This document shows positions 20,293 through 25,323 of a stretch of DNA of 64,000 nt, one piece after another (positions within the stretch are counted from its first letter, which is position 1; each line of letters begins with the position of its first letter). Source of the DNA: Malacoraja senta (lineage: Eukaryota). The translations under genes and the position numbers were made by a program. The notes under the pieces are model-generated. The model searched no databases, was not told the origin of the DNA, and was given only the letters and a program-made list of their open reading frames with translations. Location: NCBI GenBank assembly GCA_038087875.1, contig CM075988.1, forward strand, positions 15,316,001-15,380,000. Direction: 5' to 3'.

Positions 20293-20914
20293 ACAGATGT
20301 TGGTTTAAAACGAAGATAGACACAAAAAACTGGAGTACTCAGCAGGACCTATACCTTTTCTGCAGAGATGCAGTCTGACCCACTGAGTTACTCCAGCTTT
20401 TTGTGTGTAAGATAAGATAGGGTATTTTTAACTTTCTTCTTTGGTCTTAGTTCAGTTGGAATGGCAGTTATGGCAGTTGCTCCTCTTTCCGGATGTGGGA
20501 AATCAGGAAACCTTCCAGTGTGGAAAGGTGCATCCCGTTGCAGCTCCTGACTGACCACATGAGCCTGAAACGTCATCCATTCTTTCTCTCCAGAGATGCT
20601 GCCTGTCCCGCTGGGTTACTCCAGCTTTTTGTGTTTATCTTCGGTGTGACCACATGAAGGAACTGGAGCTGGAGCTGGAAATGGACATCACATGACAGCA
20701 TCATAGATGGAAGCTTTCGCGAGGTGGCCACATCTTAGGTGTAGGCAGATAGTAGCTGAGTGACCACCAGGAATGGTAAAGGAGGGACACAGAGAGTGCA
20801 GGACAAGCCTGAGCCGTTGCTCATGAAAATATGTACACCATTTTAGATACAGTTGAGTGAGGTGTGAGTGGTGGGGGTGAGGAATGACTATTCAGGAAAA
20901 AGCAGCAGTCGCAG

Positions 20915-21440: not shown

Positions 21441-21598
21441 ATGATTAGAATTCAATTCACCCAATTCAAATGCGCAGGTGTCAGACTTTGATCAAATTAT
21501 TGAATAATACAAAAAAGAGGCCAATTAGCCAAATGCACCTAAACTGCCTCTTTAAACGATCTTAGACACAAAAGGTTGGAGTAACTCAGCGGTACCGG

Positions 21599-21652
21599 GG
21601 GGTGGAAGATTGCAACCTTCACGTGGTCCACCCTGTTTCGACTAATGCAATC
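21599..21652 (+). ncRNA. Minimal HDV-like self-cleaving ribozyme motif (54 nt)
   Basis: P1 GGGGTGG/CCACCCT with G1.U wobble, P2 GATTGCA/TGCAATC, P3 ACC/GGT, L3 TTCACGT, P1.1 G21635, tiny P4 T-TTCG-A, J4/2 CTAA with putative catalytic C21642. Confidence 0.85.
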
Positions 21653-21741
21653 AACTCGACGTGCACAAACAGAAGATCAAATAGAACAAGTTGTCCTACA
21701 ACTTTAGGCTGTGCACACCACACGAAAGAAGAAGAAGAAGA
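21599..21741 (+). mobile_element. Short SINE-like retroelement with HDV-like ribozyme head and (GAA)n tail, copy 1
   Basis: TSD agcggtaccgg at 21588-21598 and 21742-21752; inserted into a Penelope terminal-repeat fragment; highly similar to 23618-23759. Confidence 0.9.
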
Positions 21742-22569
21742 AGCGGTACCGGCAGCATCTCTGGAGAGAAGGAATGGGTGACCATTCGGGTCGATACCCT
21801 TCCGCCCCAATCTCCTTCCCCTAAAAACCTGCAAATGTTTGATTTCAACTCGTTATCCAAATACCTTTTGAAAAATATTAAATTTGGTTCAACACATTTT
21901 CAGACAGTGCAATTTACATCACAACAACTCACTGTGATAAAATAATGGTCAGCCCCCTCCCTTAGACTCTTTAGTCAACTTTACATTTAATCGCTCTATC
22001 TACCTACCCTGCTGCCAGTGAAAAAAAAAAACAAGTATCTCCCCTGTTAATCTATCAAAACCCTCTAAAATGTTAAAAGTTCCCATTAATCTTTAACTTT
22101 CTCAGTATTAAGGGGAACAAGCACATTTTCTCCTGCCTCTCCATGTAAATCACATCCTGATTGCTGGTATTATCATACTGTATTATTGCAGTATATACTG
22201 TATTATTGTGTTAGGTACAATAGCCTAGTGATAAAGTTACTGGACAAACAGCTAGAGTTTGGGACTATTGTTCCGGAGACTTAAGTTTGAATCCCACCAC
22301 AACAGCTGCTGCTTTTAAATTCAAGAAATTGAAAACAAAGGTAATGATGACCATAAAATGGCAGAATTGTCATACAAACCTATCTTGTTCACGGAAGGAA
22401 ATCTAATCTAAATATACCTTCAGATCCACGGATGTGGTTAACCCTTTACTGATTCCTCAGTTCAGGAGCAGTAAATGTTGGCACTGCCAGTGACACCCAC
22501 ATCCTGTGAAAGAACAAATAGAAAATATATTCTCCACATCCTCTCCAAACCCAAATTTCATGCACATTG

Positions 22570-23617: not shown

Positions 23618-23671
23618 GGGGTGGAAGATTGCAACCTTCACGTGGCCCGCCCTGTTTCGGCTAATGCAATC
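23618..23671 (+). ncRNA. Minimal HDV-like ribozyme motif, copy 2 (one P3 mismatch)
   Basis: P1 GGGGTGG/CCGCCCT (extra U.G), P2 GATTGCA/TGCAATC, P3 ACC/GGC (A-C mismatch), L3 TTCACGT, J4/2 CTAA (C23661). Confidence 0.75.
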
Positions 23672-23759
23672 AACTCGACGTGCACAAAACGGAAGATCAA
23701 ATAGAACAAGTTGTCCAACAACTTTAGGCTGTGCACGCCACACGTAAGAAGAAGAAGAA
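23618..23759 (+). mobile_element. Short SINE-like retroelement with HDV-like ribozyme head and (GAA)n tail, copy 2
   Basis: TSD gagtgaaacca at 23607-23617 and 23760-23770; same 5' start and 3' tail as copy 1. Confidence 0.9.
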
Positions 23760-24254
23760 GAGTGAAACCAGAAAAGAGCAATTATGCTCATCAGGAAAGA
23801 CCGAAGAGTCCAGGAATCTTTTCTCTGGAAAAGACCAGTGCGCTGTAAAAATATGTTTTCACTTATGGTGGAGACTACAACTAATCCTATAATGAATCTA
23901 ATCACTAATAAATCCAACTGGGAATTGAAAGGATTATTTTTAATGAGCATGTGGTCACAACGTGGAACTCATTCAATCAGCAGTATGAACACAGAAATTG
24001 AGAACAGGAATAGGCCACTCGGCCCATTGAGCCTGCTCCTCATTCAATAAGATCATGATTTACCCGACTCTAACCTGAGTCATCTGAATATTTCTGCCAA
24101 CCCCCATAACCTTGACCAGCCCCGCTCCCTCCCTTTGTTCACCGTTTATTTACCTCTGCCTTCAAAATATTCCAAGTCTCTGCTTCACTGCTCTGTGAGG
24201 AAGAGAGTGTTTCACAACTCTCAAAGAAAAAGATTTATGTCTCCATTCTGTCTC

Positions 24255-24545: not shown

Positions 24546-25323
24546 AGTGGGTAATCCAGTAATTTCTCAATAATGAGTCTAATTTTGGGATGTTTAAGAA
24601 AGAACTGCAGATGCTGGAAAAATCGAAGGTAGACAAAAATGCTGGAGAAACTCAGCGGGTGAGGCGGCATATATGGAGCGAAGGAATACGTGACATTTCG
24701 GGTCGAGACCCTTCTTCAGACTAATTGCTGGATCCTCCCACAAGAGAAGATATGCTTCTTGCATCCACTCTGTCAAGACCCATCTGGGCCTTTTATTTTT
24801 CAATCAAGTCCCCTCTCACTTTTTTTTAAACTCCAGTGGTCAGACAACTATGCATGTCAAACCTTTCTTCGTTAGACAAGCTGCCCAGTCCAAGTATCAG
24901 ACTGGACTGCTTCCAATACCTTTACATACTTCATTAAATAACAAGAACAACACAGTGCACAGTACTCAAGCTATGCCCTGTGTAACTGATAGATCACTTG
25001 GCTATATTTGTATTTATTTCCCCTGTCAGTAAATGATTTCACACTGTTAGCATTCCTAATTGTTTGCTGTATCTGCACATCAGCATTCTGGAAATCCTGC
25101 ACTAGGACACCCAAATCTATTTGTATCTTCAACTCCACAATCTCTCACCGTTTAGTTAAAATGCTTTACATTTCTTGCCAAAAAAGGTAAATTTTACATT
25201 TTCCCACATTTCCTCTATTTGCCAGCTCTTTGTTCAGTTATTTCACCTAACCTTTGTAGCCTCTTTACCATATACTTTTCTTTCTATCTTAGTGTCGGCA
25301 ATAAAAAAAAATCAGTATCCTTA

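What the first reader, a model, noticed from the sequence alone, without database searches (positions are those of the whole stretch)
21599..21741. SINE-like element whose head is a minimal HDV-like ribozyme rather than a tRNA
Seen: the first 54 nt fold by eye into the full HDV nested double pseudoknot. P1 is 21599-21605/21628-21634 with a G1.U wobble; P2 is 21608-21614/21646-21652 (7/7); P3 is ACC/GGT; L3 TTCACGT fits UYCHCGY; P1.1 is a single pair; P4 is reduced to T-TTCG-A; J4/2 is CTAA. The TSD ends at 21598, so the element starts exactly at the predicted cleavage-site G. No pol III A/B box is visible. Known: HDV-like ribozymes process the 5' ends of R2, RTE and L1Tc/ingi retrotransposons. 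Inference: a promoterless ~143-nt element that cuts itself out of host read-through RNA and borrows a LINE RT. I do not know of a description in elasmobranchs, but cannot check.
Basis: partly seen in the sequence, partly recalled or inferred. Interest (0 to 1): 0.9.

Follow-up and report, generated by a model that had tools for sequence, protein, structure and literature searches.

The report
Short retroposon headed by HDV-like ribozyme
A 143-base mobile element present in roughly ten thousand copies starts with a 54-base fold of the hepatitis-delta/CPEB3 self-cutting RNA type instead of a tRNA-like promoter, and a fuller version of the same fold heads the LINE that probably copies it.

Summary

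The head is not a chance fold. The same genome holds at least five other repeat families whose 5' ends pass Rfam's curated cut-off for the CPEB3 (HDV-like) ribozyme, at 36-64 bits. Aligned with them, the head keeps P1, P2 and P3 through compensatory changes. Covariance models built without any copy of this element find only its two copies in the 64-kb window, with exact borders.

One of those families is a young, intact 3.15-kb single-ORF LINE (endonuclease plus reverse transcriptase). It starts at G1 of its ribozyme and ends in ACACGAAAA(GAA)n with 11-12-bp duplications. It is the likely partner.

No tRNA, A box or B box is present. About 9,600 heads are in the assembly.

Self-cleavage is untested and no RNA data were available. 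Ribozyme-headed non-autonomous LINE derivatives are already known (R2 SIDEs, NARTc, RTE "bipartite" elements). This is therefore a new variant: lacking the P4 helix, 54 nt, vertebrate, high-copy. A side result is that CPEB3-type ribozymes act as retrotransposon heads outside mammals.

The parts
21588..21598 (+). left target-site duplication AGCGGTACCGG
   Evidence: Exact 11-nt direct repeat with 21742-21752. It ends at the base before G1.
21599..21652 (+). 54-nt HDV-like (CPEB3-type) ribozyme head without a P4 helix. Predicted cleavage is 5' of G21599.
   Evidence: Read. Scores: RF00622 24.9 bits and RF02682 17.5 bits; own models built without this family, R2 31.4 bits and R1 27.5 bits, both with exact borders. 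Covariation with sister families.
21599..21605 (+). P1 5' strand GGGGTGG (pairs with 21628-21634 CCACCCT; G21599.T21634 wobble)
   Evidence: In alignment A1, 3 of 7 P1 pairs show changes on both sides. Position 21630 is A here and G in most copies, giving U-A or U.G.
21608..21614 (+). P2 5' strand GATTGCA (pairs with 21646-21652 TGCAATC)
   Evidence: In A1, 6 of 7 P2 pairs show changes on both sides and 96.3% of cells are paired.
21615..21627 (+). P3 ACC/GGT enclosing L3 TTCACGT. C21620 is the proposed P1.1 partner of G21635.
   Evidence: L3 is identical to the Rfam CPEB3 consensus. In A1, 2 of 3 P3 pairs change on both sides; the P1.1 C-G pair is invariant in 27 of 27 rows.
21635..21641 (+). 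J1/4 (GT) plus a TTCGA linker that replaces P4
   Evidence: 24 alignment columns of P4 are absent here and in family F4. Position 21640 varies G>A in a minority of copies.
21642..21645 (+). J4/2 CTAA. C21642 is the predicted catalytic cytosine.
   Evidence: It aligns with the C of CGAA/CTAA/CCAA directly before the P2 3' strand in all families. Position 21643 is the variable N: T, G or A. The Rfam CPEB3 model, which has no P2 pairs, puts its C at 21639 instead.
21653..21719 (+). body with no ORF. Predicted outer stem 21661-67/21710-16 and hairpin 21688-94/21698-704.
   Evidence: Folds. The energies are not better than shuffles (z 0.49 and -0.76). The hairpin stem is constant and its loop varies among subfamilies.
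21720..21741 (+). 3' terminus ACACGAAA followed by the (GAA)n tail
   Evidence: The same octamer plus GAA units ends the ribozyme-headed LINE.
21742..21752 (+). right target-site duplication AGCGGTACCGG
23618..23761 (+). second, older copy of the same element (94% identical). TSD GAGTGAAACCA at 23607-17 and 23760-70.
   Evidence: The head scores 26.8 bits (R2) and 22.1 bits (R1). One P3 pair is broken in this copy.

Best explanation
The element is a short non-autonomous non-LTR retroposon of the SIDE / 'bipartite non-autonomous LINE' type, not a pol III SINE. Its first 54 nt are a reduced HDV-like ribozyme of the CPEB3 type with the P4 helix replaced by a 5-6-nt linker.

Proposed life cycle:
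- A copy is transcribed as part of a longer host or neighbouring transcript (inferred).
- The head folds and cuts the RNA 5' of G1, which sets the exact 5' end (inferred from structure and from the 5' junctions).
- The 3' end ACACGAAA(GAA)n is used by the endonuclease/reverse transcriptase of a young RTE-like LINE of the same genome for target-primed reverse transcription (inferred from shared end, tail and TSD size).
- This gives full-length or 5'-truncated copies flanked by 9-17-bp duplications (shown).

The LINE carries a full-size ribozyme of the same type at its own 5' end.
For: 1. Anatomy and TSD.

2. Family size. A 30-nt head pattern with up to 3 mismatches matches 9,596 places, against 0 in the reversed control. 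All 40 scored full-length matches are 97-100% identical.

3. 5' junctions. Of 52 distinct full-length copies, 47 have a TSD of 9-17 bp (median 11). In 37 of those 47 it ends at the base before G1, in 8 one base away, and in 2 two or three bases away. 5'-truncated copies with their own TSDs also exist.

4. Kinship of the head. RF00622 searched in the own genome gave 39 of 59 scored candidates over the 35-bit cut-off, best 64.2. One tested copy from each of five such families passes the cut-off (59.7, 54.5, 45.8, 43.4 and 36.3 bits).

5. Covariation. 15 of 23 pairs change on both sides. The covariation score is 0.515 against at most 0.106 when slid, and 0 of 500 shuffles reach it.

6. Independent models. 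Two covariance models built from the 21 other-family heads only find 21599-21652 (31.4 and 27.5 bits) and 23618-23671 (26.8 and 22.1 bits) as the best hits in the window. The next best hit scores 11.2 bits.

7. A second short family without P4 (F4) shares the linker region but has different, still complementary helices.

8. Candidate partner.
- One full-length LINE copy has a single open frame of 940 aa with Exo_endo_phos and RVT_1 domains.
- Its ribozyme head starts right after an 11-bp TSD in 2 of 3 copies checked. The third copy has an altered 5' end and a 12-bp TSD.
- The 3' end is ACACGAAAA(GAA)2-4 in 20 of 20 further copies.
- There are 212 such 3' ends in the assembly.
- After the last whole GAA unit, G follows in 75% of 20 LINE copies and 80% of 49 element copies.

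9. No pol III-type head.
Against: - No cleavage assay and no RNA data were available.
- The head itself is below Rfam's cut-offs (24.9 of 35; 17.5 of 44).
- Model R1 with default filters missed the 21599 copy and found it only with filters off.
- Within this element's own subfamilies there is no compensatory change, only three tolerated differences (positions 8, 32, 45).
- The deficit of subfamily differences in the head is not significant: 3 of 54 columns against 14 of 84 in the body, Fisher p 0.065.
- Single copies decay as fast in the head as in the body. This is expected for dead copies but gives no support.
- The covariation comes from about six families, so the independent events are few. 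Seven of the 28 fetched heads were left out of the alignment. Two of them (L094, L102) were dropped because my script found no P2 partner.
- Element and LINE share only 8 nt plus the tail at the 3' end.
- Pattern searches found no LINE that shares the element's body or its exact head.
- Natural activity of an HDV-like ribozyme without P4 rests on work I only recall; I saw only the title of Riccitelli 2014, in reference lists.
Confidence: 0.8

Rival explanations
1. The head works mainly, or also, as an internal promoter at the DNA level, as Pr77 does in L1Tc/NARTc. The exact 5' ends would then come from transcription starts, and the ribozyme fold would be inherited baggage or a second function.
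For: Exact 5' ends fit a fixed start site as well as a cleavage site. A dual promoter/ribozyme head is documented for L1Tc/NARTc (abstract of PMC3383444; passage in PMC8256844). 9,596 heads is a large number for an element that depends on read-through alone.
Against: There is no tRNA, A box or B box, and no other small-RNA family matches the head. Helices are kept by compensatory changes across families, which a DNA promoter does not explain. The LINE and four other families have different primary sequence in the helices but the same fold.
Confidence: 0.1
2. The head, lacking P4, no longer cleaves. It is kept because the LINE protein binds it, as the R2 protein binds the 5' pseudoknot, or because a full-size ribozyme or a host nuclease makes the end.
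For: P4 is missing. The head scores below Rfam's cut-off. Binding of R2 protein to its ribozyme region is described in the review PMC6765202 (passage).
Against: All core features remain: G1.U, the P1.1 C-G pair, L3, and C-N-A-A directly before P2. A second family lacking P4 (F4) keeps the same core, reaches 36.3 bits, and also starts right after its TSD in the 2 copies checked, L087 and L088. The positions that vary between subfamilies are the ones that also differ between the aligned sister families here (J1/2, the N of J4/2) or that keep a pair (U-A / U.G).
Confidence: 0.08
3. The fold is a chance resemblance in an ordinary repeat.
For: Loose HDV descriptors give chance hits. My own gave 1 in 46 Mb of random sequence, which means tens of hits in a 1.9-Gb genome.
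Against: The fold sits exactly at the first base of the element. Models trained on other families find it with exact borders. Its helices co-vary with those families. The descriptor gave 36 hits in 597 kb of real sequence and all 36 are these heads.
Confidence: 0.01
4. The ribozyme reading is right, but the reverse transcriptase comes from another LINE than the ribozyme-headed RTE-like one. Candidates are the young L1-like family or a LINE not found here.
For: Only 8 nt plus the tail are shared with the RTE-like LINE. An L1-like family with many intact 1271-aa frames is also present. The element's body and hairpin have no counterpart in any LINE found.
Against: The one L1-like copy read ends in an A-rich tail, not GAA. 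In 296 kb of sampled genome, no other repeat with a (GAA)n end was seen. Tail unit, junction signature and TSD length match the RTE-like LINE.
Confidence: 0.25

Closest known systems
R2/R1 hybrid SIDEs and R2 SIDE of Drosophila (Eickbush & Eickbush 2012, PMC3414825; passages read)
   Same: They are short, ORF-less elements made of an HDV-like ribozyme plus a few nucleotides, joined to sequence that a LINE's machinery uses at the 3' end. They are not transcribed by pol III. Most 5' junctions are precise. They are mobilised in trans, and the ribozyme can differ from the partner's by compensatory changes.
   Different: SIDEs sit only in 28S rDNA and depend on rRNA co-transcripts. They are low-copy, 200-530 bp long, and have large R2-type ribozymes with P4 and a long J1/2. 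The element here is dispersed at about 9,600 sites, is 143 nt long, and its ribozyme is 54 nt without P4.
NARTc / SIDER and the Pr77-L1TcRz head of trypanosomatids (PMC3383444, PMC4035085, abstracts; PMC8256844, passage)
   Same: They are dispersed non-autonomous partners that share an HDV-like ribozyme head with their LINE. The head releases the RNA from longer transcripts.
   Different: They are protist elements of the ingi clade with a 77-nt head that is also a promoter. The head is the same sequence in LINE and partner. Here the head and the LINE's head differ in all helices.
Bipartite non-autonomous LINEs of the RTE clade, and RTE ribozymes (Kojima 2018, PMC5786205, passage; Ruminski 2011 not held, known to me only through citations)
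   Same: They are non-autonomous derivatives that keep the LINE's 5' end, where a self-cleaving ribozyme is predicted, together with its 3' end. RTE is one of six LINE clades reported with 5' ribozymes.
   Different: I could not see the sequences of those elements or whether any lacks P4. The element here is not a simple 5'+3' deletion product of the LINE found, because body and helices differ. I infer the clade of the LINE from its architecture only.
Mammalian CPEB3 ribozyme (Rfam RF00622)
   Same: L3 (UUCACGU) is the same, as are the CCCUGU stretch after P1 and the single C-G P1.1 pair. The model places G1 at 21599. Sister families in this genome pass the curated cut-off.
   Different: The CPEB3 ribozyme is a single-copy intronic RNA with a P4 helix, described as mammalian. 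The head here scores 24.9 bits against a cut-off of 35, lacks P4, and is the 5' end of a repeat.
Minimal HDV-like ribozymes of the human microbiome (Riccitelli, Delwart & Luptak 2014; only the title seen, in reference lists; content recalled)
   Same: They are natural HDV-like ribozymes of about 50-60 nt with a reduced P4.
   Different: They are microbial and not heads of retroposons. I could not read the paper.
Hammerhead-bearing SINE-like elements (Schistosoma Sm-alpha) and retrozymes (review PMC6765202, passages)
   Same: They are non-autonomous retroelements that carry a small self-cleaving ribozyme.
   Different: They use a different ribozyme class, process multimers or circular RNA, and have a pol III or LTR context.

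Membership tests
HDV-like self-cleaving ribozymes (structural class) | Nested double pseudoknot: P1 with the cleavage site at its first nucleotide, P2 crossing P1, P3 nested, P1.1 | tested here: met
   Pairs read. 91.8% of cells pair across 27 distinct heads, and 15 of 23 pairs change on both sides.
HDV-like self-cleaving ribozymes (structural class) | G1.U wobble at the base of P1 | tested here: met
   G21599 with T21634. GU in 15 of 27 aligned rows; the other rows have decayed or flank letters at column 1.
HDV-like self-cleaving ribozymes (structural class) | Catalytic C in J4/2, directly followed by N-R-A and the P2 3' strand | tested here: met
   C21642-T-A-A followed by TGCAATC. The C and the first A are invariant columns in alignment A1.
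HDV-like self-cleaving ribozymes (structural class) | P4 helix | tested here: not met
   Only a 5-6-nt linker (21636-21641) is present; 24 P4 columns are absent. P4 is reported as dispensable (recalled; title only seen). PMC4870747 speaks of about 50 nt for the minimal fold.
HDV-like self-cleaving ribozymes (structural class) | Divalent-ion-dependent self-scission leaving a 5'-OH at G1 | not testable with these tools
   This needs in vitro transcription. No RNA run was available for reading 5' ends.
Rfam RF00622 CPEB3_ribozyme | Score at or above the curated gathering score of 35 bits | tested here: not met
   24.9 bits for 21588-21649. Sister families in the same genome score 36.3-64.2 bits.
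Rfam RF02682 HDV-F-prausnitzii | Score at or above 44 bits | tested here: not met
   17.5 bits, with borders exactly 21599-21652.
SINE in the strict sense | Head derived from tRNA, 5S, 7SL or snRNA with an internal pol III promoter (A and B boxes) | tested here: not met
   ARAGORN finds nothing. No such Rfam family matches at E up to 10. No A or B box at up to 2 mismatches lies inside 21599-21741 (box consensus recalled).
Non-LTR (TPRT-made) retroposon | Variable-sequence TSDs, a 3' repeat tail, 5'-truncated copies | tested here: met
   47 of 52 copies have TSDs of 9-17 bp. Tails have 1-9 GAA units. Truncated copies have their own TSDs.
SIDE / bipartite non-autonomous LINE | 5' end and 3' end both derived from the partner LINE, with the coding part deleted | tested here: inconclusive
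   The head has the same ribozyme type and layout as the LINE's (P1 7 bp, J1/2 AA, P2 7 bp, P3 3 bp, same L3) but different helix sequences. The 3' identity is limited to ACACGAAA plus GAA units. No LINE with this element's exact head or body was found.
RTE clade (for the candidate partner LINE) | Placement of the reverse transcriptase within RTE in a phylogeny | not tested
   Only architecture speaks for it: about 3.15 kb, one 940-aa frame, N-terminal endonuclease plus RVT_1, short UTRs. Homologues are unnamed or named only 'reverse transcriptase'.

The most novel reading that the evidence does not exclude
The mammalian CPEB3 ribozyme is not a mammalian invention. It would be one exapted copy of a vertebrate-wide family of retrotransposon 5'-processing ribozymes.

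In this genome that family is still at work. It heads an intact RTE-like LINE and at least two short parasitic elements. In the parasites it has been pared down to a 54-nt core without P4. This would be the smallest natural eukaryotic HDV-like ribozyme and, at about 10^4 copies, the most abundant one in a vertebrate genome.
Probability: 0.35. Interest if true: 0.85.

Novelty: new variant of a known kind. Interest (0 to 1): 0.65.

Why it matters
For ribozyme biology, the element offers a natural 54-nt HDV-like core without P4 that can be tested directly, together with a graded series in one genome. The heads run 78, 73, 68, 64 and 54 nt with different P1, P2 and P3 sequences, which amounts to a natural mutagenesis set.

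For mobile-element biology, it shows that ribozyme-headed, promoter-less parasites of LINEs can reach SINE-like copy numbers in a vertebrate and spread genome-wide. They are not confined to rDNA niches or to trypanosomatids.

For the long-open question of where the CPEB3 ribozyme came from, repeat heads over Rfam's curated CPEB3 cut-off in a non-mammalian genome make a retrotransposon origin testable. One would look for remains of LINE sequence downstream of the ribozyme in CPEB3 introns, and for such heads in other vertebrate LINEs.

For genome annotation, Rfam-based pipelines may label these repeat heads as 'CPEB3_ribozyme' genes.

Tried and rejected
- **RNA evidence.** No RNA holder was listed. 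The four runs laid were contigs of unknown kind, so no starts, ends or expression could be read.

- **Partner LINE by shared 3' sequence.** I ran five pattern searches with 'not-this-base' codes at three boundaries and one behind the ribozyme. They gave only copies with indels, 5'-truncated copies, local duplicates and a palindromic rearrangement.

- **A (GAA)n-tailed LINE in the 296 kb already held.** None was found.

- **The best RVT_1 hits.** They led to an L1-like LINE with an A-rich tail, not the partner.

- **A P4-bearing ancestor with this element's own helices.** None was found. The 30 one-mismatch hits are ordinary copies.

- **Energy-based support.** The whole element and the 3' domains of the element and the LINE fold no better than shuffles.

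- **Earlier notes of this scan.** Nothing was held.

- **Literature.**
  - Ruminski 2011 and Webb & Luptak 2011 are not held.
  - The search for the Rfam name CPEB3_ribozyme found one unrelated paper.
  - My search was too loose to be of use.

- **Pfam scan of the whole LINE frame from typed letters.** The two halves were scanned by reference instead.

- **Pol III rival.** I had first noted by eye a weak A/B-box likeness in the head. The pattern scans do not bear it out at up to 2 mismatches.
Full report
**What is there**

Window 21599-21741 (+) is a 143-nt element flanked by the exact 11-bp repeat AGCGGTACCGG at 21588-21598 and 21742-21752. It ends in ACACGAAA followed by five GAA units.

- P1: GGGGTGG with CCACCCT, including G1.T.
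- P2: GATTGCA with TGCAATC, 7 of 7.
- P3: ACC with GGT, around L3 TTCACGT.
- One possible P1.1 pair, C21620-G21635.
- A 5-6-nt linker where P4 would be.
- J4/2 CTAA directly before the P2 3' strand.

The element is inserted in another, far more abundant repeat. Contigs of four public runs join the two flanks while skipping 154-164 nt.

A second copy (94% identical) lies at 23618-23761 with its own TSD.

**It is a large, young family**

The assembly (1.94 Gb) has 9,596 matches to a 30-nt head pattern at up to 3 mismatches, and none to the reversed control. The 40 scored full-length matches are 97-100% identical.

Of 52 distinct full-length copies that I held, 47 have a TSD of 9-17 bp (median 11). 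The position of the TSD relative to G1 was as follows:
- In 37 it ends at the base before G1.
- In 8 it ends one base away.
- In 2 it ends two or three bases away.
- In 5 my script found none.

These copies were chosen as full-length. The count therefore speaks to extra bases at the junction, not to truncation. 5'-truncated copies with their own TSDs are common.

Tails have 1-9 GAA units.

A composite subfamily that carries a copy of the host-type repeat inside the 3' hairpin has also transposed and still starts at G1. So has a subfamily with an internal deletion right behind the ribozyme (about half of the 54 hits).

**It is not a pol III SINE**

ARAGORN finds no tRNA. No tRNA, 5S, 7SL or snRNA family of Rfam matches the head at E up to 10. 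No A box or B box at up to 2 mismatches lies inside the element (box consensus recalled).

The nearest A-box-like and B-box-like words (21582-92 and 21788-98) belong to the interrupted host repeat.

**Is the fold more than chance?**

On its own the head is weak by Rfam:
- 17.5 bits to RF02682 (cut-off 44), though with borders exactly 21599-21652.
- 24.9 bits to RF00622, the CPEB3 ribozyme (cut-off 35), with E 3.6e-5 for the 81 nt searched and G1 placed at 21599.

I wrote a loose descriptor after seeing the candidate, from recalled HDV features. In 597,456 nt of real sequence it hit 36 sites, all of them heads of this element. In 46 Mb of Markov-random sequence it hit one site. Chance hits somewhere in a genome are therefore expected, but not at the first base of a given repeat.

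**The decisive evidence is comparative**

Searching RF00622 in the own genome gave 39 of 59 scored candidates over the curated cut-off, the best at 64.2 bits. About 102,000 first-look candidates were not scored.

I fetched 28 of these places. They fall into five families whose heads share L3, the CCCUGU stretch, J1/4 GU and C-N-A-A before P2. They have different P1, P2, P3 and P4 sequences and P4 lengths. One copy of each family passes Rfam's cut-off, at 59.7, 54.5, 45.8, 43.4 and 36.3 bits.

I made a plain MAFFT alignment of 28 heads: 7 of the 55 copies of this element, chosen to span its subfamilies, and 21 of the 28 fetched heads. Seven fetched heads were left out:
- L082 and L098 for altered or truncated 5' ends.
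- L088 for a deletion.
- L107 and L108 as near-repeats.
- L094 and L102 because my script found no P2 partner.

|---|---|---|
| Cells paired | 91.8% | 34-45% with partners slid |
| Covariation score | 0.515 | at most 0.106 with partners slid |
| Shuffles reaching the score | – | 0 of 500 |

Of the 23 pairs, 15 change on both sides: P2 6 of 7, P1 3 of 7, P3 2 of 3 and P4 4 of 5. The changes come from about six lineages, so the number of independent events is small.

Two covariance models were built from the 21 other-family heads only:

| Model | Helices modelled | 21599-21652 | 23618-23671 | Other hits |
|---|---|---|---|---|
| R2 | P2+P3+P4 | 31.4 bits (E 3e-6) | 26.8 bits | none |
| R1 | P1+P3+P4 | 27.5 bits, filters off | 22.1 bits | next best 11.2 bits |

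With default filters R1 lost the first copy.

**Inside the family the signal is weak**

The three subfamilies differ in the head only at position 8 (J1/2), position 32 (U-A or U.G in P1) and position 45 (the N of J4/2). In the body they differ at 14 of 84 columns, which gives Fisher p 0.065.

The same three places are the only variable ones in the head in contigs of four runs, against eight places in the body.

Single copies diverge from their subfamily majority as fast in the head as in the body. This is expected for copies that are dead on arrival.

**A likely partner**

One of the families with a CPEB3-type ribozyme head is a LINE. A full-length copy (L082+L089, adjacent stretches of one contig) is about 3.15 kb long and laid out as follows:
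- A 73-nt ribozyme with an 8-bp P4.
- One open frame of 940 aa with Exo_endo_phos/Exo_endo_phos_2 and RVT_1 domains.
- A 3' UTR of about 225 nt.
- The end ACACGAAAA(GAA)n and a 12-bp TSD.

In two further copies an 11-bp TSD ends at the base before G1 of the ribozyme.

The assembly has 212 such 3' ends at up to 3 mismatches, at least 100 of them exact. Twenty of twenty further copies end in 2-4 GAA units.

The base after the last whole GAA unit is G in 75% of the LINE copies and in 80% of 49 element copies.

Element and LINE thus share ribozyme type and layout, the terminal octamer, the tail unit, the junction signature and the TSD size. Nothing else is shared.

I infer the clade (RTE-like) from architecture only. 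Homologues with 50-64% identity occur in sea urchin, amphioxus, insects, Anolis and a fish, and carry no clade names.

An L1-like LINE with many intact 1271-aa frames is also present. The one copy I read ends in an A-rich tail.

**Mechanism**

Shown:
- The retroposon anatomy.
- The exact 5' junctions.
- The conserved, co-varying HDV-like fold.
- A co-resident intact LINE with matching ends.

Inferred:
- Transcription by read-through.
- Self-cleavage 5' of G1 with C21642 as the catalytic base.
- Use of the LINE's protein in trans.

A second short family without P4 (F4, about 165 nt, TSDs in L087 and L088, tail AAG units) has nearly the same linker (GUUUCCACCAA against GUUUCGACUAA) but different complementary helices. 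This suggests that loss of P4 is tolerated in the non-coding parasites.

**Comparison with what is known**

- Drosophila R2/R1 hybrid SIDEs are an R2 ribozyme plus 5-8 nt joined to an R1 3' end. They cleave in vitro (PMC3414825, passages read).
- NARTc and SIDER share the L1Tc ribozyme/promoter head (abstracts; passage).
- A review states that some LINEs and SINEs use HDV-like ribozymes, and that hundreds of intergenic copies with conserved downstream sequence were seen (PMC6765202).
- Kojima 2018 lists six LINE clades with 5' ribozymes and notes that RTE, Ingi and R2 give 'bipartite non-autonomous LINEs' (PMC5786205).

The kind is therefore known. The following are not in the papers I could search:
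- A 54-nt head without P4.
- SINE-like copy number in a vertebrate.
- A head that is not the partner's own.
- CPEB3-family heads on repeats outside mammals.

Ruminski 2011, Webb & Luptak 2011 and Riccitelli 2014 were not readable, and Repbase and Dfam were out of reach. Prior description cannot be excluded.

**Verdict**

- The element is a new variant of a known kind.
- The side result on CPEB3-type heads may be the more interesting lead.

Noticed in passing
own genome, e.g. L090:41-124, L092:41-129, L097:41-115, L099:41-119, L106:41-103: At least five repeat families carry 5' heads that pass Rfam's curated cut-off for the 'mammalian' CPEB3 ribozyme (36-64 bits). 39 of 59 scored candidates were over the cut-off, and about 102,000 first-look candidates were unscored.
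   Followed up: partly
L082:112-901 with L089:1-2352 (one contig, adjacent); also L081/L110 and L090/L111: An intact, young, about 3.15-kb single-ORF LINE (940 aa, endonuclease plus RVT_1). It has a 73-nt CPEB3-type ribozyme as its first bases, the end ACACGAAAA(GAA)n and 11-12-bp TSDs. There are 212 such 3' ends in the assembly.
   Followed up: partly
L087:801-854 (-), L088:799-851 (-), L100, L104-L109: A second short ORF-less family (about 165 nt, TSDs, AAG-unit tail) with its own ribozyme head lacking P4. The head reaches 36.3 bits on RF00622.
   Followed up: partly
window 21560-21598 and 21742-21830; also 20302-20419 and B-box-like words at 24700, 36808, 45481, 52543, 57419: The element sits inside a much more abundant repeat with an A-box-like word (TAACTCAGCGG, 21582-92) and a B-box-like word (GGGTCGATACC, 21788-98), probably a tRNA-derived SINE. 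The insertion splits its two boxes. Contig depth on the flanks is about ten times that on the element.
   Followed up: no
L079:738-1100, L080:735-1095: A composite subfamily. A copy of the host-type repeat is inserted in the element's 3' hairpin, with the hairpin duplicated around it. The whole has transposed to at least four places.
   Followed up: partly
own genome, 54 places listed: About half of the hits are copies in which the ribozyme is joined directly to AAATAAGATCAA. This is a deletion between two AATCAA words that removes the 5' strand of the predicted outer stem, yet the form is found at many loci.
   Followed up: no
L078:1-1900 and the table: An L1-like LINE with many copies of an uninterrupted 1271-aa frame. 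The one copy read (L078) ends in an A-rich tail. There are 159,857 first-look RVT_1 candidates in the genome.
   Followed up: partly
proteins P0002-P0120: The LINE's reverse-transcriptase half has homologues of 50-64% identity on about 3-kb contigs. By name they include sea urchin, amphioxus, psyllid, moths, Anolis and an Antarctic fish. This spread is unusually wide for such identity.
   Followed up: no
L076/L077 (two contigs, 100% identical over 1199 nt): A ribozyme head lies inside a palindromic rearrangement, present twice in the assembly. This is probably an assembly duplicate.
   Followed up: yes
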